Positions 3,509 to 20,000 are shown, counted from the first letter of the stretch. The stretch: DNA of 20,000 nt from Wickerhamiella versatilis (GCA_030867685.1 JAQOWU010000003.1:1347226-1367225), one strand, 5' to 3'. Notes: a model not told the origin generated them from the letters alone. Program-made: numbers and translations.

Positions 3509-5896
3509 ATGAACTTCGCGCATCTATGGAGATGCCCGTCACCAGTCACTGCAGTTGCTGCCCATAATGAGCAGATATTTGCTGGCACAATACATGGTGA
3601 AATCTATGAATACAATCTTGTAACTTGTCAACTTGCTCAGTATTGGAAAGCGCATTCTGCCTCCATTTTGGTATTACACATTTCAGCTGATGGTTATCTT
3701 TTTAGCGGAAGTGGTGATTCGCTCGTAAAGGTGTGGAACCTCCCTTCAGTAATGTTGAAGTTCACATTATATTGTTGCACGGACGTTGGTGATGTTTTTT
3801 CGTTGGCCTACATCCCTGAAAATCGCACAGTGTATTTTGGGACTCAAAACGCTTCCATCCATTGGATGACTCTACCTGCATTAGAAGAGGAGGTCATAAT
3901 TCCCCCAGAGCGTCCGTCGAGTAGTAAGAGTCATCCAGCAGTGCGCCCATCACGATTCTTTGACAGCGCTGGACCAGGTGGGGTGCTGGCACCACAGCAA
4001 CAGGAAAAAACCATATTACAGGAATACCTGGATGCAGATTCGACCCTTGTTGAAATACCGCCAGAGAACTCTATTTCTTTCGCGCATTTTTCAGCTGTCT
4101 CGACGATGGCGGCAATAGGTAAACATTTGCTCGCAACTGGATGTGAAGACGGCGTTCTTAAGTTATGGCAAATTGATAGGGATTCTCCGCCGACTGAGCT
4201 GTATCGCATGCAGATGGATCAGCCTATTCTATCCATGAGCTTTGCTAGTACATGGCAGCCGGGTTGTGGGCTAGAAGATGGTACACTTGTACTATTTGAT
4301 GTTGAAACATTTCAAGCATTGAGTCATAAGGTAGCTAAGACACCAATTTTGTCTCTCAGTTTCATTCATGGCATGTGGTTCACCGCTAGCGGTTCCATCA
4401 CTCGTGCGCTAGACCAAAATTTTGGTTACCTTGCTGAATGGGATACTGAATCTTTAATCACATCTACTTCCTATGTGAAATCTTATTTGATAACAGGCTC
4501 TCAGAATGGTCATATAGCCATTTGGCATATGCCTGATCATGCAGTCAGCGTCGAAAGTAGCCCAAATAGTCCACAGGCATATCTTTCTGATACTAATATG
4601 ATGGAGACATTAAGGCGTCTAGTAGGATATCGCACAGTGAGCTCTCGTGAGAACACATGGTTTTCTGAGTGTCGCCAATGTGCCATAGATATTCGAGATC
4701 TGTTGCGAAGATTTGGAAGCCAGGCTGATTTTCTTCCCATCGATGGAGGTAACCCTATTATAGTGGCGAAATTCTCCCCAAAAAATCCACAAGCGCATAT
4801 TGTATTTTATGGCCATTATGATGTCATTGACGCAAATGATAGTGATGAGTGGGCATTACCTCCATTTAAGATGACGAGCGTAGATGGTTATGTCCATGGA
4901 CGCGGCGTTTCTGATAACAAGGGACCTCTAGTTGCAGCTATTTTCGCAGTGGCGGAACTTTATGCTTCAAAAGAGCTCGATGTCAGCGTTACGTTTCTTA
5001 TAGAAGGTGAGGAGGAGACTGGATCGTACGGCTTTGCTGAGGCTGTATCAAAAGCTGGGATCGAAAAGCCTGACTGGGTGCTTTTCAGTAACTCCTACTG
5101 GATCGATGATGTTCATCCGTGTCTAAATTATGGACTGCGTGGTGTCGTTCATGCGGAGGTTGAAGTAGTAAGTGATACCGTTGACAGACATTCTGGCATG
5201 GAAGGAGGTTCTTCTCGAGAGCCGACAATAGACATGATTAATCTTTTGTCCACACTCACGGTACCAAATTCTGGCAAAATTGCAATTCCAAACTTTGATT
5301 CGCCAGTGCTTCCAGTAAGTGACAAAGAACGAGTATTGTACGAGGAAATTTTAAAACATAATGATGCTGGATCATCAGTTTATGAACTAATGCAAAAATG
5401 GAGATTTCCCTCGTTGACTGTTCATCGCGTAGAGGTCAGTGGACCTGGAAACGTGACTGTGATTCCTGCAAAAGTGAATGCGGCCATCTCACTACGTCTG
5501 GTACCAAACCAAACCTCAAACATGGTGAAAGGGCTTCTTTCTAGCTTTTTGCATAGCGAATTTGCGAAACTTAAGACTTCGAATCATCTTAAGATCCACT
5601 GGCGCGGTAGCGCGGACCCTTGGTTGGGCGATCCAAGCAATGCAGCATTTGGTCTGCTTCATGATGCCACGACTGAAGTTTGGGGTGTACCACCACTTTA
5701 TATCCGTGAAGGTGGTAGTATTCCTGTTGCCCGAACATTAGAACGAATATTTGATGCCCCAGCGGCCCAACTTCCCTGCGGTCAAAGCTCAGACGGAGCT
5801 CACCTTGATAATGAACGTCTGCGTATCACAAATTTTCTTAATGCACGTGCTGTGTTTAAGCTGGTATTTCAGCGCATTGGTTCTAGGAAAACTTAA
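3509..5896 (+). CDS. DUG2: Glutathione degradosome subunit Dug2 (WD40 repeats + M20 peptidase-like domain)
   Basis: N-terminal WD40 repeats (LFSGSGDSLVKVW, LATGCEDGVLKLW) are fused to M20 motifs (FYGHYDVI, GRGVSDNKGP, EGEEETGS, REGGSIP, AHLDNER). This fusion defines Dug2. Confidence 0.93.
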   Translation: MNFAHLWRCPSPVTAVAAHNEQIFAGTIHGEIYEYNLVTCQLAQYWKAHSASILVLHISADGYLFSGSGDSLVKVWNLPSVMLKFTLYCCTDVGDVFSLAYIPENRTVYFGTQNASIHWMTLPALEEEVIIPPERPSSSKSHPAVRPSRFFDSAGPGGVLAPQQQEKTILQEYLDADSTLVEIPPENSISFAHFSAVSTMAAIGKHLLATGCEDGVLKLWQIDRDSPPTELYRMQMDQPILSMSFASTWQPGCGLEDGTLVLFDVETFQALSHKVAKTPILSLSFIHGMWFTASGSITRALDQNFGYLAEWDTESLITSTSYVKSYLITGSQNGHIAIWHMPDHAVSVESSPNSPQAYLSDTNMMETLRRLVGYRTVSSRENTWFSECRQCAIDIRDLLRRFGSQADFLPIDGGNPIIVAKFSPKNPQAHIVFYGHYDVIDANDSDEWALPPFKMTSVDGYVHGRGVSDNKGPLVAAIFAVAELYASKELDVSVTFLIEGEEETGSYGFAEAVSKAGIEKPDWVLFSNSYWIDDVHPCLNYGLRGVVHAEVEVVSDTVDRHSGMEGGSSREPTIDMINLLSTLTVPNSGKIAIPNFDSPVLPVSDKERVLYEEILKHNDAGSSVYELMQKWRFPSLTVHRVEVSGPGNVTVIPAKVNAAISLRLVPNQTSNMVKGLLSSFLHSEFAKLKTSNHLKIHWRGSADPWLGDPSNAAFGLLHDATTEVWGVPPLYIREGGSIPVARTLERIFDAPAAQLPCGQSSDGAHLDNERLRITNFLNARAVFKLVFQRIGSRKT

Positions 5897-8723: not shown

Positions 8724-9863
8724 ATGGCTATGAGTTTAGCTCGAAGAATAGTGTCTTCAGCTCAATCAATAGAACCTCAAAATAATGAGACACAAAATCA
8801 TTCAACTTCTCACGGTAAGCATAGGCAGTCACCTCTCCAATCCACACTGCCTCCAGTGGTCCAACCCCAAACGGACCTAATTAAACAGGTAAATGACGGC
8901 TATGGTGTGGATATAGGTCCCTTTATTCTGCATGAAGAGCCAAAACTGATCTGCTGTAGTAAATGTGATAGTCGGTCAAATCCTCTTCGAATATCAGATC
9001 TTAAGCAACACGTCAAACAATTCCATTCTGTGAATGGCACTCCCAAAAAAGAATTTGAAGATGCGCGAATCCAACTTGTGATGAAGATAGGCAATAGCGA
9101 AGAATATCAAACAATTCCCACAATACAGGGTCCGATTCGGGCACTAAGAGGTTTGAGAATCAATGCAGAAGGAGTAAAATGTGGTGGATGTTCCTGGGCC
9201 CGCTCCCGTTCTAGTTTGGTTCGTGTACAGCAGCACGCCCGGTCAGCTCATGATCGTCCTTATGAGGTAGTTGAGAATGTCAAGGTGCAGGTCGGAAAGA
9301 GAGGCGAGCACGGGTCATTTCTTGTTTATGAAACGTATCCAGAACTACAAAAGTTGCTAGAAAAAAGGCCTGCTATGCCAATGGCTGAGTCTCATCGTGA
9401 TGCACGTCAGCCAGATCCCGAATCTACTTTGGTCAGTAGTGAGGAGGAGTATGGAGCATCAGTAAGTCCACACAGCTCCCTTTCTTCTCCAAAATCTAAA
9501 AAACGCCGAAAGGGGCTGAACTATAAGCCAATCAGTGAATTAGCTAGATCTGTCCTATCCAGCGGGAGTGTGCCAGAGACGCAAATGACACTTGAAAAGC
9601 AGAAATTACTGCGAGTTTATGCAGATACATTAAGCGAGACCGCCAAGTTACTCGATATTCCGGCAACAGAACACCATCGGTGCTTTGTTCGCTCAATGTG
9701 TGCATTGGTAGTTCAAGAGGCAGCCTGGCAGCTTCAAGATACCAGAATGGCCCCCTTCATGGCTTCTGCTGCCCGAAGTATCACTGCTGACCCAGGTTTG
9801 TTCGAAACACTAGTATTAGGTGTTGTTGATGTCCTACAGAATCCAAATGAATTTGGTCCCTAG
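8724..9863 (+). CDS. Hypothetical nuclear protein with two C2H2-like zinc modules (DUF3505/OrsD-like)
   Basis: The ORF-track start at 8661 is GTG; the first in-frame ATG is 8724. Motifs are LICCSKC...LKQHVKQFH, GPIRALRGL, GVKCGGC...VQQHARSAH and VKVQ, plus an NLS-like PKSKKRRK. The domain call is from remembered motif spacing. Confidence 0.6.
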   Translation: MAMSLARRIVSSAQSIEPQNNETQNHSTSHGKHRQSPLQSTLPPVVQPQTDLIKQVNDGYGVDIGPFILHEEPKLICCSKCDSRSNPLRISDLKQHVKQFHSVNGTPKKEFEDARIQLVMKIGNSEEYQTIPTIQGPIRALRGLRINAEGVKCGGCSWARSRSSLVRVQQHARSAHDRPYEVVENVKVQVGKRGEHGSFLVYETYPELQKLLEKRPAMPMAESHRDARQPDPESTLVSSEEEYGASVSPHSSLSSPKSKKRRKGLNYKPISELARSVLSSGSVPETQMTLEKQKLLRVYADTLSETAKLLDIPATEHHRCFVRSMCALVVQEAAWQLQDTRMAPFMASAARSITADPGLFETLVLGVVDVLQNPNEFGP

Positions 9864-10000: not shown

Positions 10001-10759
10001 ATGGAAAATAGCGAAGAACTGTTTGAGAAAAGAAATACTGATCTGGAATTGAGAAATGCACAAAGCTTAGCTGATCGACTCCGAACACGACTAGCTGATG
10101 CTTATCGTGAGCTAGACATGCAGGGCCCCAAATTGCGGCAGTTGGCGCGGACTGTGGAGCAAGCACAGGCTTCAAATCTTAAGAAAGATGCACAAATACG
10201 TAGTCTCCAAGGTGATGTCCGCGAGTGCAGTGCCCGTGTTTCGCGTATGGAAATGCGCGCAAAAAAGATGGAGACTGCACTATCTACAGCCCGCTCAAAA
10301 TATGGCAGCGAGCTGCGCAAACGTGATGTCCAAGAGGAGAAACTTCTACGTGAATTGCGCCGAGTTCAGGCGTCCCCGTCGGTACCAGCACCCAAAATTC
10401 CCACCATGATGTTCCAATCACATGAAGAACGAGCCCTGGTGGTCTTTGATAACGAGCAAAAGAGGCTTGCACAAGAATTAGAGCGCCGTTTGGAGTCTCT
10501 ATGCCATAGATTCAATGCAGCAGAATTCTCAGGTCCACCTATAGATCGGTTGGAGAAGGCTATCGTTGCGATGGAGCAGCGTCACGCAGTTCAACTTCAG
10601 CAAGAAATTGAGCGCAGCGAGGGGCTCCAGAAAAAATTGTGGCAGATGAAAGAGGAGCTGGATGAGAAGACCGCACTTTGCAAGCGGGACGTTGAGACTT
10701 TGGAAAAATGGAGTCAATATGTACGTGATAAAGATCTTCTTCAAGTCGCGGGGATTTGA
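10001..10759 (+). CDS. Coiled-coil protein, possibly ADIP/Msd1-like (afadin/alpha-actinin-binding family)
   Basis: 252-aa ORF that is almost entirely heptad-like and E/K/R/L-rich. ELRKRDVQEEKL resembles the end of the fungal ADIP domain. The gene itself is likely real; the family is tentative. Confidence 0.55.
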   Translation: MENSEELFEKRNTDLELRNAQSLADRLRTRLADAYRELDMQGPKLRQLARTVEQAQASNLKKDAQIRSLQGDVRECSARVSRMEMRAKKMETALSTARSKYGSELRKRDVQEEKLLRELRRVQASPSVPAPKIPTMMFQSHEERALVVFDNEQKRLAQELERRLESLCHRFNAAEFSGPPIDRLEKAIVAMEQRHAVQLQQEIERSEGLQKKLWQMKEELDEKTALCKRDVETLEKWSQYVRDKDLLQVAGI

Positions 10760-12736: not shown

Positions 12737-14159
12737 GTGGATTCGATTAGTCACCTTCTGGAATGACCCACAGTACTGTAAAAGCAGAACACCTCTCGCT
12801 TTTTGCGGTTAAAAGTAGTTAGCATTGATTTTTGGTGTGTGTTTTTTCCCAATCTATTTAACCGAGGTTGTGCACTAATTCTCCCTTAATTGTGGCAGTA
12901 TGACTTACAGGGATCTTGTAATCCCGACCAGGATCAAAAAAGATAGAGTCTACAATGATCATAATTTCACTTCAGTTCTGACACCATGGTATATATTGCA
13001 TCATTTATACAACGACCTTTTAAAATCCTTTTTTTTCTGGTTAAAATGCCCTTTTTCGAGGAGCTACACGCTGGGACTCAACCCTATCCCATGTAGAGTA
13101 AATCATTGGGTCCACATACATATTTATTGTTGAGATATTTGCGGAGCATGTTCCTAAATTAACCTTATCAGCCCCTTTACCCTACTGTCTGAAACAGCTT
13201 AACTGGCCAAGGAGCTAGCTCAGTTCTTCAAGATCGATACCCTCCACTTCATAAAACACCATACCACTATAGGGTCCACATTCAAGATTGGTCGGATTTT
13301 GGTGAAATATGACACTTGCGCTTCTTTAAAAACATCCCTACTTATGCTTTTTTCTCTCATCTTTAAAACGGTTTTAATAGCGAGTCTGAAAACCCACTTT
13401 ACTACTATATTGTATTGATTTTATTTCCATCGTCGCTGAATTGCTTTTCATCTATCCTTACCTTCTTACTGAAAAGGATTAGCTTTTTACTATATTCGGT
13501 AATCTCCAAGCAACTTTTGCGCGCGCATTCGTGGACCATCAGGTAATTTCCACATTAAGTAAAGTACCCTGAACCCTGGCCACTTGCAGTACTCGTCCCA
13601 CAGAAAGGCATAAATAGCGTCCAATCGCTCCCAATTCTCCATTCTTCTTACACCCACCCAGCACCAGGATCACTTCGCGCTTCCACACAATCGAGATGCC
13701 TTATCATCTTGCGCTACCCAGGTATGACCTGCCGAGGGCCAGGACCACATGATCCCACTCTCAAGTGATAGTATCATATTTATAGCGGACTGCTTCCCGT
13801 TCTCACTCCTGCTTCGAAATTAAGGCTCTTCATTTGTTGAATGCTGGCTCATACAGTACTAACTTAATGTTGTTTGAGCGAGCAATTCTAATAGACACCT
13901 CTCCGCAGCTCCCAACAACGGATGGGACAAAATTCACCGTCTACCATTATTGAAGAGATGAAGCGAGAAGCCAAAGCCAGGAGCAAAAAGCTGGGTGTCA
14001 TGGGCCCACAAAACGAAACACCCAAACTGGATTCGCTTAAATCCGCGCGCGTATCTCTCTTCCATTGGCTATACTCCACTATTCTACCGTCTACCCCTGT
14101 ATTACTGATACTTATACTTCAGTATTGATACAAATCAAAAATTAACGCAAACAATCCTT

Positions 14160-14730
14160 TGAATACTTCTGACTACTGCCTGATTCGTATCATATGTTCT
14201 TCACAAGATGAGGCGTAAGTCTTCGCTCAATGCGTATTCCTGCTTCGTGTTGCGTTCCACAAACACCAATGAATCAAAATTCATAGCAAAATGATCCGAA
14301 CAAATATCGAAAAATGCAAACGATACGGAATAAATCAAAACAAAAAGGAAAATCTCAGTATCACCTGAGTATCTGACTTCTTGACGACAACATCCGACAC
14401 AGACATACCATTCTTACTGAGGACTACTGTCTATACCAAACAAAAATTGCTCGATATCATCTCAAGGTCCTCCCTGAGGCTCTTGAGTTTGGTCAGCGGG
14501 TATTTTGTTTTGGTATTCACGGAGCTTTCCTCTCTCGTGTGCCTAATTTGGGTATAGTGCAAACTCAGATACCTCTCAAATGATGCAAGAGAACAATCAG
14601 ACAGAAACATGTCCAATATCGGTCAGATACATCCGAAATCTGTTGTATCTCCTCACTCCGACAACGGTGGAAAGCCATCCACAAAGAAATCCTAAATCGC
14701 CAGTATCCGGAAACAATATATGTGATCCTT
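14160..14730 (+). mobile_element. Decayed Ty1/copia-type pol fragment (integrase to RT start); also the most diverged first monomer of the array
   Basis: Motif remnants occur in copia order: MIRTNI at 14291 (cf. LIHTDI), LDDNIRHRHTIL at 14380 (cf. IDDYSRYRW), LEFGQRV..FGIHGAFL..VPNL at 14482-14545 (cf. Ty1 FGQPV..RGIPGYAL..YLPSL), then WKAIHKEI near 14668 (RT start). There are many stops, frameshifts and deletions. Confidence 0.55.
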
Positions 14731-15596
14731 TTACTGGTTTCAGGGGTTCTTTGACCGGATGGCAGGATACTTTTTGTCAACTGCTTTAGCAGAGTAGAGG
14801 TTTCACTCAGATCTTGGATACACACAAGCGAATCAAAACTTCAAAAATATCAATTGGATATCTTCGGTTCATTGCCGACTCAAGTCCATTCTGAACATTG
14901 TGCAGAGAAGACACATTGATATTAAGAGATTCTGACAATATGAAGAAAACATTGCTCAAAGCACTCTCAAAGTTTCCTGTAAACTCTTGAATTGGGCTAA
15001 AGGGTCAATTTTTTTTTCTATTAGCAGATTTTCCGTTTATCTTTTGCCTTCTTTGGCTGTAGCAACGAACCAAGCATATCCCAAATGGAATTCTCCTCAA
15101 AAAACAAGAAAGAGATACGTCTATTGTTTGCCAAGTATATCTGAATCTGCTGCATCTCCTCACTCCGACAAATGGTGGAAAGCCATCCACAAAGAAATCC
15201 TATCGCCAGTATCCGGAAACAATACATGTGATCCTTTTGCTGGTTCAGGTTTTCTTTGACCGGGCGGCAAGATACCTTTTGTCGACTGCTTCAGCAGAGT
15301 AGAGGTCTCGCTCAGATTTTGGATACACACAGGAATTTGGCTGTCTCACACTGGTATTCAAAAAATGTCAATTGAATATGTCTGGTTGCCGAAACGTCAG
15401 ACCCACTCGACGGAGGTATATGCATGTATACTGAGAGTTACTGGCCATATGGAGACAAAATCACTCGATATCTTCTCAAAGCTTTCCATAAAGCGTCTGA
15501 GTTTGATAAAAAGATTGAATTTTGTATCTCCATTTACAGGAATCTCTTTTATCCTTTGCCTTCTTTGGTTGTGACGGCAAAGACATCACCTTGCAT

Positions 15597-16141
15597 CAAA
15601 AGAATATCAACTAAAACAATCAAAAAAAGTCAACCAAGAACAAGCAAAATAATTTCAATCAAAATCATTTCAATCAAATACAAAAAAAAATCAACCAAGA
15701 ACAATCATTTCAATCAAAAACAACAAAAAGATATCAATCAAGAACAATCAAAATCATTTCAATCAAAAACAAAAAAAACATCAATCAAGAACAATCCAAA
15801 AAATATCAACCAAGAACAATCAAAATCATCTCAATCAAAAACAAAAAAAAGTCAATCAATCAAAAACAATAAAAAGATCTCAATCAAGAACAATCAAAAA
15901 AAATATCAATCAAATACAAAAAAAGATCAACCAAGAACAATTATTTCAATCAAAAACAAAAAAAAAGTCAATCAAGAGGAACCAAAAAAATATCAACCAA
16001 GAACAATCAAAATCATCTCAATCAAAAACAAAAAAAATGTCAACCAAGAACAATTAATTAAAAAAAAATCAAAATCATTTCCATCAAAAAAAATCACAAT
16101 CAAAAGCAATCAAAAAAATGTCAAACAAAACAATCCAACCA
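15597..16141 (+). repeat. A-rich compound microsatellite tract 1 (aatcaaaa / caaccaagaacaatc / aatcatttcaatc)
   Basis: About 545 bp of shuffled short motifs that are A-dominated with very few G on the + strand. Confidence 0.92.
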
Positions 16142-17060
16142 GTCTCCTCACTTCGACAACGGTAGAAAGCCATCCACAAAGAGATGCTATGTCGCCAGCA
16201 TCTGGAAGCAATGCATGTGATCCTTTTGCTCAGGGATTCTTTGACCGGGCGGCTAGATACCTTTTGTCAACTGCTTTAGCAGATTAGAGGTTTCACTCAT
16301 ATTGGATACACACAAGGGAATCCATCAATCAAAAATATCAATTGGATATCTTTGGTTCATTGCTGACTCCAGTTCATTCGGAACATTGTGCAGAGAAGGC
16401 ACATTGATATTAAGGGATTCTGACAATATGAAGAAAAATCACTCGATATCTTCTCAAAGTTTTCCATCAAACTTTTGATCAAAAGGTTGAGTTTTATGTC
16501 TATATTCACAGGAATCTCTTTTATCATTTGCCTTCTTTGGTCGAAGCAACAAGCCAAGCATATCTCAAATGGTATTCGCCCATCTATTGTATGACAAGCA
16601 TATCTGAATCTGCTGTGTCCCCTTACTCCGACAAATGGTGGAAAGCCATCCACAAAGAAATCCTATCGCCAGTATCTGGAAACAACATATATGATCCTTT
16701 TGCTGGTTTCAGGGTTTCTTTGACCGGGCGGCAGGATACCTTTTGTCAACTGCTTCAGCAGAGTAGAGGTTTCGCTCAGATTTTGGATACAGATATTTGG
16801 CTATCTCACACTGGTATTCAAAAAATGTCAATTGAATATGTCTGGTTGCCGAAAAGTCAGACCCACTCGACGGAGGTATACGCATGTATACTGAGAGTAC
16901 TGGCCATATGGAGACAAAATCACTCGATATCTTCTCAAAGCTTTCCATAAAGCGTCTGAGTTTGATCAAAAGATTGAATTTTGTTTCTCCACAGGAATCT
17001 CTCTATCCTTTACCTTTTTTGGTTGTGGCGGCAAAGACACAGAAAAGCCATCACCTTGCA

Positions 17061-17383
17061 TCAAAAAATAAACAGAAACCAATCAAAATAATTTCCATCA
17101 AAACCCAAAAAAATGTCAATTAAAATCATTTCAATCAAAAAAAATCGACCAAGAACAATCATTTCAATCAAAAACAAAAAAAGATATCAATCAAAAACAA
17201 AAAAAATATCAATCAAGAACAATCAAAAAAAATGTCAACCAAGAACAATCAAAAGAAAATGTCAACCAAGAACAATCAATCAAAAAAAATCATAATCAAG
17301 AACGATCAAAATCATTTCAATCAAAAACAAAAAAACTGTCAATCAAGAACAATCAAAAAATGTCAAACAAAACAATCCAATCA
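17061..17383 (+). repeat. A-rich compound microsatellite tract 2
   Basis: Same motifs and same flanks as tract 1 (caccttgca on the left, caatccaa.cagtctcct on the right); about 325 bp. Confidence 0.92.
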
Positions 17384-18629
17384 GTCTCCTCATTCGACAA
17401 CGGTGGAAGCCATTCACAAAGAAATGCTGTGTCGCCAGCATCTGGAAGCAATAAAATATGATATCCTCTTGCTGGTTTCAGATTCCTTTGACTGGGCGGC
17501 TAGATACCTTTTGTCAACTGCTTTAGCAGATTAGAGGTTTCACTCAGATCTTGGATACACACAAGGAAATCCATCAATCAAAAGTGTCAATTGGATATCT
17601 TTGGTTCATTGCTGACTCCAGTTCATTCTGAACATTGTGCAGGGAAGACACATTGATATTAAGAGATTCTGACAATATGAAGAAAACATTGCTCAAAGCA
17701 CTCTCGAAGTTTCCTGTGAAGTCTTGAATTCGGCTGAAAGGTTACTTTTTTTTCTATTAGCAGATTTTCCATTTATCTTTTGCCTTCTTTGGTCGTAGCA
17801 ACGAACCAAATATATCTCAAATGGTATTCTCCTCAAAAAAACAAGAAAGAGATACGTCTATTGTATGCCAAGTATATCTGAATCTGCTGTATCTCCTCAC
17901 TCCGACAAATGGTGGAAAGCCATCCACAAAGAAATCCTATCGCCAGTATCCGGAAACAACATATGTGATCCTTTTGCTGGTTTCAGGGTTTCTTTGACCG
18001 GGCGGTAGGATACCTTTTGTCAACTGCTTCAGCAGAGTAGAGGTTTGGCCCAGATTTTGAATACACACAGGAATTTGGCTATCTCACACTAAATGTGGTA
18101 TTCAAAAGAATCATCGAAATAATCATTATTTCAAAAAATGTCAATTGAATATGTCTGGTTGTCGAAAAGTCAGACCCACTCGACGGAGGTATATGCATGT
18201 ATACTGAGAGTTACTGGCCATATGGAGACAAAATCACTCGATATCTTCTCAAAGCTTTCCATAAAGCGTCTGAGTTTGATAAAAAGATTGAATTTTGTAT
18301 CTCCATTTACAGGAATCTCTTATCCTTTACCTTCTTTGGTTGTGGCGGCAAATCAGACATATGTTTCAAATGGCGTTATATTCAAGAGAACCATTAAGGA
18401 CAAGAGTCCTATCAGAACTCTGTCGTATATCCGAAACATTTGATGAAATTCATCCACTGTATCTCTTCGCATATTCACAAGGAAACCCTACGCTACTCGT
18501 ATTCAGAAGAAACTGATATAATCGTACTGATATCAGGAATTCTTTTTGATGAGATTGCGATATGTTCTCTGTTGACTGCTCCGAGATAGCAGACCATTTC
18601 TCAAAGATACGGAGAAGCCACCACCTTGC

Positions 18630-18909
18630 AACAAAAAATTAACAAAAACCAATCAAAAGAATATCAACTAAAACAATGAACAAAAATTCAACCAAGAACA
18701 ATCAAAAAAATATCAATCAAAAGCAATCAAAAATGTTAATCAAGAACAATCATGTCAATCAAGAACAATCAAAATCATTTCAATCAAAAACAATCAAAAA
18801 GAATATCAATCAAAACAACAATCAAAAAAAAATGTCAATCAAAACAACAATCAAAAAAAAATGTCAACCAAGAACAATCAAAAATATGTCAAACAGAACA
18901 ATCCAACCA
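18630..18909 (+). repeat. A-rich compound microsatellite tract 3
   Basis: Same motifs and flanks as tracts 1 and 2; about 280 bp. Confidence 0.92.
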
Positions 18910-20000
18910 GTCTCCTTCGACAACGGTGAAAAGCTATCCACAAAGAATCTATGTTGCCAGCATCTGAAAACAATGAAATATGTGATCCTTTTGCTGGTCT
19001 CAGATTTCCTTTGACCGGTTGGCTAGACATCTTTTGTCAACTGCTTCAGCAAAGTAGAGGTTTGACTCAGATTTTGGATACACACAAGGAAATCAATCGA
19101 TCAAAAGTATCAATTGGATATTTCTGTTTGTTGCCGACTCCAGTCCATTTGGACCATTGTGCAGAGAGGCACATTGATACTAAGAGATTCTGAAAATATG
19201 AAGAAAAATTACTCGATATCTTCTCAAAGTTTTCCATCAAACTTTTTGATCAAGAGGTTGAGTTTTATGTCTATATTCACAGGAATCTCTTTATCCTTTG
19301 CCTTCTTTGGTCGAAGCAATAAGCCAAGCATATCTCAAATGGTATTCGCCCATCTATTGTATGACAAGCATATCTGAATCTGCTGTGTGCCCTCACTCCG
19401 ACAACGGTGGAAAGCCATCCACAAAGAATCGTATGTCGCCAGCATCTGGAAATATGTTATCCTTTTGCTGGTTTCAGATTTCCTTTGACCGGGTGGCTAG
19501 ATATCTTTTGTCAACTGCTTTAGCAGACTAGAGGTTTGACTCAGATTTTGGATACACACAAGGGAATCCGTCAATCAAAAATATCAATTGGATATCTTGG
19601 TTTATTGCCGACTCATGTCCATTCGGAACATTGTGCAGAGAAGACACATTGATATTAAGGGATTCTGAAAATATGAAGAAAATCATCTGATATCTTCTCA
19701 AAGTTTTCCATCAAACTTTTGATCAAGAGGTTGAGTTTTATGTCTCTATTCACAGGAATCTCTTTTATCATTTGCCTTCTTTGGTCGAAGCAACAAACCA
19801 AGCATATCCCAAATGATATTCGCCCAAGAAAAAAAACGAGAAAGAGATACGTCTATGTTTGACAAGTATATCTGAATCTGCTGTATCTCCTCACTCCGAC
19901 GAATAGTGGAAAGCCATCCACAAAGAAATCCATATCGCCAGTATCCGGAAACATACATGTCCGGAAACAATACATGTGATCCTTCTGCTGGTTTCAGGTT

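What the first reader, a model, noticed from the sequence alone, without database searches (positions are those of the whole stretch)
14160..20000. Satellite array whose monomer appears to be a miniaturised Ty1/copia integrase-to-RT segment
Seen: at least nine head-to-tail monomers. Translated across frameshifts, they give copia pol remnants in native order: CQLLQQSRGF (cf. integrase Zn finger CxxCQLxKQxRxPF), ILDTHRNL (cf. LDLIHxDL), GYLWFIADSSSF (cf. YFLTFIDDYSRF), YPLPSLV and YVSNGVIF (cf. YLPSL, VSRDVIF), and PSISESAASPHSDKWWKAIHKEILS...NNTCD (cf. the RT start PxTYxEAxxSPDxxKWxxAIxxELxSLxxNNTWD). Established: copia order is IN then RT, and this span is normally much longer than 500 bp. Inference: an internally deleted pol segment was tandemly amplified into a non-coding satellite. 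I know LTR-derived repeats and clusters of whole Ty elements in yeasts, but not a satellite built from pol coding sequence.
Basis: partly seen in the sequence, partly recalled or inferred. Interest (0 to 1): 0.85.

Follow-up and report, generated by a model that had tools for sequence, protein, structure and literature searches.

The report
Yeast tandem repeat with copia relic
A silent, low-copy tandem repeat array beside ordinary genes in a small yeast-like genome keeps one short stretch that resembles the start of a copia-type reverse transcriptase, but the claimed integrase remnants are no better than chance.

Summary
The array is real. There are nine head-to-tail monomers of about 450-510 bp, the last cut by the window end, plus two degenerate partial copies. 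It is not a simple satellite. Two monomer families, A and B, are 69-77% alike and alternate with A-rich 25-bp minisatellite blocks in a ~2.75-kb higher-order unit. It is RNA-silent and low-copy.

This is the 24-residue stretch SISESAASPHSDKWWKAIHKEILS in the four B monomers. It aligns to the N-terminal motif of Ty1/copia RT in a profile I built from 16 (whole pol) and 37 (RT start) natural copia ORFs.

The integrase motifs (zinc finger, LIHxD, FIDD, C-terminal pieces) score no better than shuffled monomers. Pfam finds no rve, gag_pre-integrs or RVT_2. A 1.84-billion-protein HMMER search finds only short ORFs of the same repeat.

Verdict: probably (about 0.55) a non-coding array seeded by a small fragment of decayed copia pol near the IN/RT junction. 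A miniaturised IN-to-RT segment is not supported (about 0.1). Satellites from TE coding sequence are already known in animals and plants. Interest is moderate to low.

The parts
14405..14584 (+). Diverged partial monomer (tail part) at the left edge of the array
   Evidence: nhmmer with the monomer profile: monomer positions 299-481, E 4.4e-20
14609..15116 (+). Monomer m1, family A (subtype A1)
   Evidence: 88% identical to m5
15117..15600 (+). Monomer m2, family B
   Evidence: 94-95% identical to m4 and m6
15134..15205 (+). RT-start relic in m2: SISESAASPHSDKWWKAIHKEILS, in frame
   Evidence: 25.5 bits ungapped at copia pol profile positions 555-578, 0 of 500 shuffles; 11.0 bits and E 2e-5 with the RT-start sub-profile
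15601..16129 (+). A-rich minisatellite block 1 (unit about 25 bp)
   Evidence: TRF 15710-16135, period 25, 17.6 copies; the three blocks together are 61% A
16130..16579 (+). Monomer m3, family A (subtype A2); holds a ~150-nt imperfect palindrome at 16391-16540
16580..17070 (+). Monomer m4, family B
16594..16668 (+). RT-start relic in m4, inside the 172-codon open frame 16432-16947
   Evidence: 23.0 bits ungapped, 1 of 500 shuffles; 8.0 bits with the sub-profile; frame
17071..17374 (+). A-rich minisatellite block 2
   Evidence: TRF rows 17060-17372
17375..17853 (+). Monomer m5, family A (A1)
17854..18345 (+). Monomer m6, family B
17871..17942 (+). RT-start relic in m6
   Evidence: 24.7 bits ungapped, 1 of 500 and 0 of 500; 8.4 bits with the sub-profile
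18346..18629 (+).
   Evidence: 18472-18594 matches monomer positions 67-184, E 7.9e-5
18630..18894 (+). A-rich minisatellite block 3
   Evidence: TRF rows 18629-18903
18895..19348 (+). Monomer m7, family A (A2)
19349..19847 (+). Monomer m8, family A (A2)
19848..20000 (+). Monomer m9, family B, cut by the window end; its RT-start relic at 19862-19933 contains one stop codon
   Evidence: 2.5 bits with the sub-profile

Best explanation
This is a non-coding, transcriptionally silent, low-copy higher-order tandem repeat in a large intergenic region of a ~10-Mb yeast-like genome.

Shown:
- Two ~450-510-bp monomer families and an A-rich 25-bp minisatellite form a unit A1-B-mini-A2-B-mini of about 2.75 kb.
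- Copies differ by indels that break every frame.
- A and B diverged without any codon-position bias.
- The B monomers keep a 72-nt stretch whose translation matches the conserved motif at the N-terminal start of Ty1/copia reverse transcriptase.

Inferred:
- A short fragment of a decayed copia-type (Ty1/Ty5-like) pol gene around the integrase/RT junction became part of a unit. That unit was then amplified by unequal crossing-over or replication slippage and evolved neutrally.
- The A family lost the motif through a 1-nt deletion and spread of minisatellite-like sequence over the motif's first third.
- The rest of the monomer is not recognisably pol. It may come from the unconserved integrase tail just upstream of RT, or from unrelated DNA.
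For: Structure.

RT-start relic:
- With an 802-position copia pol profile built from 16 natural ORFs, the four best of 54 translated monomer frames are all this stretch in the four B monomers, + strand. Conditional E is 0.0013, 0.0044 and 0.0046 for the top three.
- Ungapped scores are 25.5, 23.0 and 24.7 bits against a shuffle mean of about 15 (sd 1.7). They were reached by 0, 1 and 1 of 500 shuffles.
- With a 68-position RT-start profile from 37 ORFs the scores are 11.0, 8.4 and 8.0 bits. The maxima in controls are 3.9 in 1000 shuffled monomers, 3.1 in 174 translated tiles of the rest of the window and 5.3 in 6972 translated tiles of reversed natural DNA.
- The best pairwise BLOSUM62 score is 56 against a shuffled-query maximum of 49 (0 of 200). 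All eight alignments printed lie at the same homologous place.
- hhalign P-values are 0.0023 and 0.0082, and this is the only notable hit.

Open frame: the B consensus is open for 199 codons in the frame of the relic (1 of 500 shuffles). The window frame 16432-16947 is open for 172 codons (1 of 300).

Non-coding now:
- Each read-through frame has 56 to 107 stops.
- RNA depth is 0-2.2 in the array against 130-560 in the genes at 11.0-12.2 kb, in 2 of 2 RNA runs laid.
- A-versus-B differences by codon position are 34/28/37, p 0.54.

Low copy: short-read contigs of 2 of 2 DNA runs end at 14680, and array pieces have about the single-copy depth.
Against: - The similarity covers only 24 residues.
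- With the unbiased whole-pol profile it is about 1 in 1000 per translated tile. Nine of 6972 reversed-DNA tiles would outrank it. That is about 0.016 after 12 independent frames.
- The first stage picked this window because of such matches, so the look-elsewhere burden is large.
- The stronger sub-profile test was chosen after the hit was seen.
- HH-suite probability is only 5-13%.
- Pfam found nothing.
- No polyprotein appeared in the 1.84-billion-protein HMMER search or in two word-based searches of longer proteins. No parent element is known.
- My profiles come from metagenome copia elements of unknown hosts, not from yeast Ty elements.
- No LTR was seen, and the Ty5-type primer-binding motif is absent (the motif is recalled).
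- A monomers hold a ~150-nt imperfect palindrome, which is not expected of coding sequence.
Confidence: 0.55

Rival explanations
1. Chance resemblance. The array is an ordinary species-specific tandem repeat or minisatellite complex with no retrotransposon ancestry. The 24-residue match is a coincidence that the first-stage reading selected.
For: - Only one short motif passes. Its whole-profile significance is modest: conditional E 0.0013 per frame, and 9 of 6972 reversed-DNA tiles score at least as high.
- Every other claimed motif is at chance.
- No Pfam hit and no parent.
- Real reverse-complement and reversed-profile controls reach chain scores as high as the real strand (segment U3, A consensus).
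Against: - The RT-start sub-profile score of 11.0 bits exceeds everything in 1000 shuffles, 174 window tiles and 6972 reversed natural tiles.
- The match lies in the frame that is unusually open.
- All eight printed pairwise alignments to different copia sequences fall at the same homologous position.
Confidence: 0.3
2. Each monomer is an internally deleted copia pol segment that keeps, in native order, the integrase zinc finger, the DD(E) core pieces, the integrase C-terminus and the RT start.
For: - The A-monomer bodies give colinear chain scores about one sd above the shuffle mean in 5 of 5 copies. These copies are not independent, and 5 to 51 of 200 shuffles reach the real scores.
- A single frame runs almost unbroken through the A consensus (148 codons, 11 of 500 shuffles).
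Against: - Targeted tests of each claimed motif failed. Counts are shuffles reaching the real score: zinc finger 218-353 of 500; LIHxD 17-204 of 500, and with a different peptide in another frame; FIDD 9-241 of 500, again a different peptide; the two C-terminal motifs 91-500 of 500.
- IN sub-profiles are at chance.
- No rve, gag_pre-integrs or RVT_2 in Pfam.
- The 'YVSNGVIF' stretch is a degenerate monomer junction.
Confidence: 0.1
3. Decayed host gene. The array is the wreck of a large protein-coding gene with ~160-residue tandem repeats and low-complexity K/N/Q/S-rich linkers encoded by the A-rich blocks.
For: - Unusually long open frames on the + strand: 172 codons at 16432-16947 (1 of 300 shuffles) and 199 codons in the B consensus (1 of 500).
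- A 303-codon open frame crosses minisatellite block 1.
Against: - No homologue other than short ORFs of the same repeat among 1.84 billion proteins.
- No Pfam domain.
- No codon-position bias between the A and B families.
- Practically no RNA in 2 of 2 runs.
- Frames are broken in every unit.
Confidence: 0.05

Closest known systems
Satellite DNAs derived from coding parts of transposable elements (PROsat and Pvc 20 from LINE-1 ORF2, chicken HinfI from CR1 ORF2, rye E3900 from an LTR-retrotransposon gag, CficCl-61-40 from a CACTA transposase), as listed in the review PMC9659126 (passages and Table 1 read)
   Same: A tandemly repeated, non-coding monomer that contains a fragment of a TE open reading frame.
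   Different: Those cases are in animals and plants and are usually high-copy. They are supported by clear nucleotide or long protein similarity to a known parent. Here the host is a small yeast-like genome and the array is low-copy. Only 24 residues match, and no parent is known.
Retrotransposon-derived tandem repeats of plants (Ogre 3' UTR arrays giving PisTR-A and Lathyrus satellites; maize CRM1TR/CRM4TR), from PMC9659126 passages and the search listing and abstract start of PMC7004042
   Same: A tandem array is seeded inside or from an LTR retrotransposon and then amplified.
   Different: Those arise from untranslated regions or LTRs, not from pol. Their parents are abundant and identifiable.
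Clusters of degenerate Ty5-like (copia-superfamily) elements at budding-yeast centromeres, for example Cyberlindnera sargentensis, Scheffersomyces stipitis and Ogataea polymorpha (PMC12711049, passages read; PMC13017519, abstract and passages)
   Same: Copia-type remnants in a large, gene-free, silent intergenic region of a budding-yeast-like genome.
   Different: Those are nested or dispersed insertions of recognisable elements and LTRs, one cluster per chromosome. Here there is a head-to-tail higher-order array with no recognisable LTR, PBS, IN or RT domain. Its chromosomal role could not be tested.

Membership tests
Ty1/copia pol-derived sequence | Integrase HHCC zinc finger (Pfam gag_pre-integrs) | tested here: not met
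   No Pfam hit in six read-through frames. In the targeted profile range, 218-353 of 500 shuffles reach the real score.
Ty1/copia pol-derived sequence | Integrase DD(35)E catalytic core (Pfam rve) | tested here: not met
   No Pfam hit. IN sub-profiles: 26/300 and 184/300, and 90/300 and 130/300, shuffles reach the real score.
Ty1/copia pol-derived sequence | Conserved motif at the N-terminal start of RT, upstream of the RVT_2 domain | tested here: met
   Present in frame in 3 of 4 B monomers, and with one stop in the fourth. Absent from 5 of 5 A monomers.
Ty1/copia pol-derived sequence | RT catalytic domain (Pfam RVT_2, YVDD box) | tested here: not met
   No Pfam hit. No significant match in the profile beyond position 578.
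Ty1/copia pol-derived sequence | Colinear IN-then-RT order of several remnants | tested here: not met
   Frameshift-tolerant chain without the RT-start piece: 5 to 51 of 200 shuffles reach the real score. Reverse-complement controls score as high.
Ty1/copia pol-derived sequence | LTRs, primer-binding site, identifiable parent element | tested here: inconclusive
   Ty5-type PBS motif (recalled) has 0 matches at up to 3 mismatches, against 3.9 expected by chance. No tRNA gene. No parent. The whole genome is not held.
Satellite DNA / higher-order tandem repeat | Head-to-tail monomers with a higher-order period | tested here: met
   9 monomers and two partial copies. The ~2.75-kb unit is shown by 99% identical copies 2773 bp apart.
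Satellite DNA / higher-order tandem repeat | High copy number, long homogeneous arrays | tested here: not met
   Listed array pieces in two short-read assemblies have word depth 137-160 against 130.6 for single-copy sequence (X2), and 8-20 against 16.4 (X6). Array length beyond 20000 is unknown.
Ty5-cluster type yeast centromere | One cluster per chromosome at the Cse4 / Hi-C centromere position | not testable with these tools
   No genome is held for the window. No ChIP or Hi-C data are available here.

The most novel reading that the evidence does not exclude
The array is a centromere-associated or centromeric higher-order satellite of a budding yeast. It grew out of a Ty5/Ty1-like pol fragment. 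It would be an intermediate between the retrotransposon-cluster centromeres now described in several yeast orders and the satellite centromeres of plants and animals.

Nothing here excludes this. The region is gene-free for at least 7 kb, RNA-silent, A/T-skewed and partly palindromic. Nothing here shows it either, and the low copy number argues against a family that is homogenised across all chromosomes.
Probability: 0.08. Interest if true: 0.75.

Novelty: new member of a known kind. Interest (0 to 1): 0.33.

Why it matters
If the copia origin holds, this would be a yeast example of a process documented so far in plants and animals, in which a fragment of a transposon's coding sequence is recycled into a tandem repeat. 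It would also lie in a group of organisms where Ty5-like remnants are now linked to centromere evolution. That makes the locus worth checking against Cse4 ChIP or Hi-C data.

As it stands, the main value of this report is corrective. The striking 'miniature integrase-to-RT' reading rests on frame-hopping motif matches, and five of the six do not beat shuffled sequence.

Tried and rejected
- Whole genome of the window: not held.
- The genome search on a metagenome locus, to reach control genomes with RVT_2: record not held.
I repeated it with stops read as X. Only weak unrelated hits came back (E 0.06-0.44: DUF6735, MDHAR3-like_C, DUF7506, A1_Propeptide, U3_assoc_6, Pox_A28, A9CJY8-like_N).
- ESM Atlas: no usable hit.
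- PDB sequence search: 0 hits at E up to 10.
- Word-based protein searches for longer relatives: none.
- Pattern scan of viral contigs for copia RT: 0 hits. The same pattern in metagenome contigs gave 103 loci.
- tRNA and Rfam scans of the window: none.
- The look-up of sequencing runs: no RNA holder listed.
- My own extra motif (LRDSDNMKK against the third catalytic region) was also at chance.
- A 33-residue match of the monomer tail to profile positions 578-610 came up in the consensus chains. It scored below the shuffle mean for single segments and lies in the wrong order, so I rejected it.
- Consensus 'ancestors' of A, B and all monomers did not bring out any integrase signal.
- One search was an empty script.
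- The supplementary catalogues of yeast Ty5 elements in PMC13017519 and PMC12711049 could not be seen. They may hold a parent element.


Full report
SETTING. The left 12.7 kb of the window holds compact, intron-free genes: an importin-beta family protein, a WD40 plus M20-peptidase fusion, a HECT ubiquitin ligase, two ORFs without a Pfam family, an aldo/keto reductase and, on the minus strand, a cytochrome c heme lyase. From 12.74 kb to the window end there is no gene, no tRNA and no Rfam family. Public runs that hold the array carry one coded species label, with assemblies of about 9-10 Mb. They also include food, food-fermentation and sediment metagenomes. In all, 20 rows from 11 studies hold it or part of it. 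I call the host a small yeast-like genome. That is inferred from gene structure and size, not from a name.

THE OBSERVATION. Tandem Repeats Finder, whose longest period is 500, reports only short-period A-rich arrays. Anchors and a monomer profile nevertheless show the larger structure.
- There are nine head-to-tail monomers, with anchor positions 14669, 15177, 16164, 16640, 17404, 17914, 18928, 19409 and 19908. Eight are full copies at E 1e-139 to 1e-157, and the ninth is cut by the window end.
- There are two further degenerate pieces, at 14405-14584 (E 4.4e-20) and 18472-18594 (E 7.9e-5).
- The monomers fall into two families. B (m2, m4, m6, m9) is 94-95% identical within the family. A splits into A1 (m1, m5; 88%) and A2 (m3, m7, m8; 88-89%). 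A against B is 69-77%.
- Each B monomer inside the window (m2, m4 and m6; m9 is cut by the window end) is followed by a block of an A-rich ~25-bp minisatellite. The blocks are 61% A.
- The first ~40 nt of three A monomers (m3, m5, m7) look like that minisatellite.
- Copies 2773 bp apart are 99% identical (family D12), so the current unit of amplification is about 2.75 kb: A1-B-mini-A2-B-mini.

IS IT POL? DATABASE TESTS. All gave nothing.
- Pfam on all six frames, with stops read as X, gave no rve, gag_pre-integrs or RVT_2. The same holds for the four longest natural ORFs tested singly.
- A stop-free 172-residue frame spans more than one monomer (16432-16947). I searched it with HMMER against 1.84 billion representative proteins. 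The five hits (E 6.5e-18 to 6.6e-5) are ORFs of 82-146 residues from the same repeat in public assemblies. No polyprotein appeared.
- Word-based searches among longer proteins found none. The ESM Atlas and the PDB gave nothing.
- So no close parent element is on record.

IS IT POL? A PROFILE OF MY OWN. No copia sequence could be taken from memory, so I fetched 103 metagenome loci that encode the two classical copia RT boxes. Of these, 89 ORFs carried the boxes. Seventeen ORFs had at least 570 residues upstream. One of them contained X and was dropped, and the remaining 16 gave an 802-position protease-integrase-RT profile.
- Against the 54 translated frames of the nine monomers, the four best hits were all the same stretch in the four B monomers on the + strand: SISESAASPHSDKWWKAIHKEILS at profile positions 555-578, the conserved start of RT. 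Conditional E was 0.0013 to 0.0046 for the first three.
- Ungapped scores were 25.5, 23.0 and 24.7 bits against a shuffle mean of 15 (sd 1.7). They were reached by 0, 1 and 1 of 500 dinucleotide shuffles. A monomers were at chance (179, 177 and 162 of 500).
- A 68-position profile of that region alone, from 37 ORFs, raised the scores to 11.0, 8.4 and 8.0 bits (E 2e-5 to 1.7e-4). The control maxima were 3.9 in 1000 shuffles, 3.1 in 174 tiles of the rest of the window and 5.3 in 6972 tiles of reversed natural DNA.
- Pairwise alignments (best 56 against a null maximum of 49, 0 of 200) and hhalign (P 0.0023 and 0.0082) agree.
- The caveats matter. With the unbiased whole-pol profile the hit is about a 1-in-1000 event per tile. 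The sub-profile was chosen after the hit was seen. The window was flagged because of such matches.

THE INTEGRASE CLAIMS. None holds up.
- Sub-profiles of the IN N-terminus, the second half of the core and the C-terminus gave real scores that 26 to 274 of 300 shuffles reached.
- For each claimed motif I scored the claimed profile range against all three frames of five monomers. Counts are shuffles reaching the real score:
  - zinc finger: 218-353 of 500;
  - LIHxD: 17-204 of 500;
  - FIDD: 9-241 of 500;
  - NRxPS-like: 91-418 of 500;
  - SRDVxF-like: 150-500 of 500.
- A frameshift-tolerant colinear chain was significant only when it contained the RT-start piece (0, 5, 0 and 5 of 200). It was not significant for A bodies alone (20, 30, 5, 13 and 51 of 200) or for B bodies (56, 17 and 115 of 200).
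- Reverse-complement or reversed-profile controls sometimes outscored the real strand.
- Consensus 'ancestors' did not help.
- The stretch with YVSNGVIF is a degenerate monomer junction, homologous to the ordinary monomer tail read in another frame.

OTHER TRACES OF CODING ANCESTRY. The B consensus is open for 199 codons, more than one monomer, in the frame of the relic (1 of 500 shuffles). The real frame at 16432-16947 is open for 172 codons (1 of 300). The A consensus has one frame with a single stop (148 codons, 11 of 500). This fits a coding origin. Yet A and B differ equally at the three codon positions (34/28/37, p 0.54), so they diverged as non-coding DNA.

STATE OF THE LOCUS.
- In two RNA runs of the species, mean depth is 0-2.2 over the array and 0-4.1 in every bin of the 12.8-14.6 kb spacer. 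It is 130-560 over the genes at 11.0-12.2 kb.
- In two short-read assemblies the unique contig stops at 14680, inside m1. The listed array pieces have roughly single-copy depth (137-160 against 130.6; 8-20 against 16.4).
- Alternative joints (14687 to 18946, 15626 to 17250) appear in both assemblies. This is what a repeat that undergoes unequal exchange, or that collapses in assembly, would give.
- The family is therefore low-copy, not a classical high-copy satellite.

WHAT IT MOST LIKELY IS. It is a neutral, silent higher-order tandem repeat. One component of its monomer descends from a small piece of a decayed copia-type pol gene at the IN/RT junction (confidence about 0.55). The rest of the monomer could be the unconserved integrase tail that precedes RT in such elements. 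That would need no internal deletions, but it cannot be tested without a parent. Chance resemblance remains a serious rival (about 0.3). A decayed repeat-containing host gene is unlikely (about 0.05).

COMPARISON WITH WHAT IS KNOWN.
- Satellites that contain fragments of TE open reading frames are on record for LINE ORF2, an LTR-element gag and a CACTA transposase (PMC9659126, passages and Table 1 read).
- Satellites from retrotransposon UTRs are well described in plants (PMC7004042, listing and abstract start only).
- In budding yeasts, degenerate Ty5-like clusters mark centromeres in several orders (PMC12711049, passages; PMC13017519, abstract and passages). Those are insertion clusters, not head-to-tail arrays.
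- Four full-text searches listed no yeast tandem repeat built from pol.
- This is therefore at most a new member of a known kind.
- Whether it has anything to do with a centromere could not be tested, because no genome, ChIP or Hi-C data were at hand.

Noticed in passing
window 16391-16540 (m3); equivalent places in m1, m5 and m8: A-family monomers contain a ~150-nt imperfect palindrome. The monomer profile matches its own reverse complement (nhmmer E 1.3e-9, 2.2e-6, 8.7e-6, 2.9e-4). In the self-versus-reverse-complement test, 0 of 100 (m3), 1 of 100 (m8) and 8 of 100 (m1, m5) shuffles reach the real score. B monomers and three control regions are at chance. This is possible cruciform-forming DNA. 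Its origin is unexplained.
   Followed up: partly
window 15376-16287: A 303-codon stop-free frame runs through minisatellite block 1 and would encode K/N/Q/S-rich low-complexity peptide. There is practically no RNA over it, so it is most likely a by-product of the A-rich composition.
   Followed up: partly
window 12740-14400: The spacer between the heme-lyase gene and the array has no Pfam match in six frames, no repeat homology and almost no RNA. It is a silent unique stretch of unknown nature.
   Followed up: partly
window 14687/18946, 15626/17250, 19999/17483: Short-read contigs of two independent DNA runs join distant places of the array. One carries 30 letters that are not in the window between 15339 and 14820. 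This suggests either further monomer variants elsewhere or strain differences in array length.
   Followed up: no
window 8724-9863 and 10001-10759: Two ORFs of 379 and 252 residues have no Pfam family at E up to 0.001. I did not study them further.
   Followed up: no
window 3509-5896: A single 795-residue ORF fuses WD40 repeats to an M20 peptidase domain. From memory, this resembles the Dug2-type glutathione-degradation protein of yeasts.
   Followed up: no
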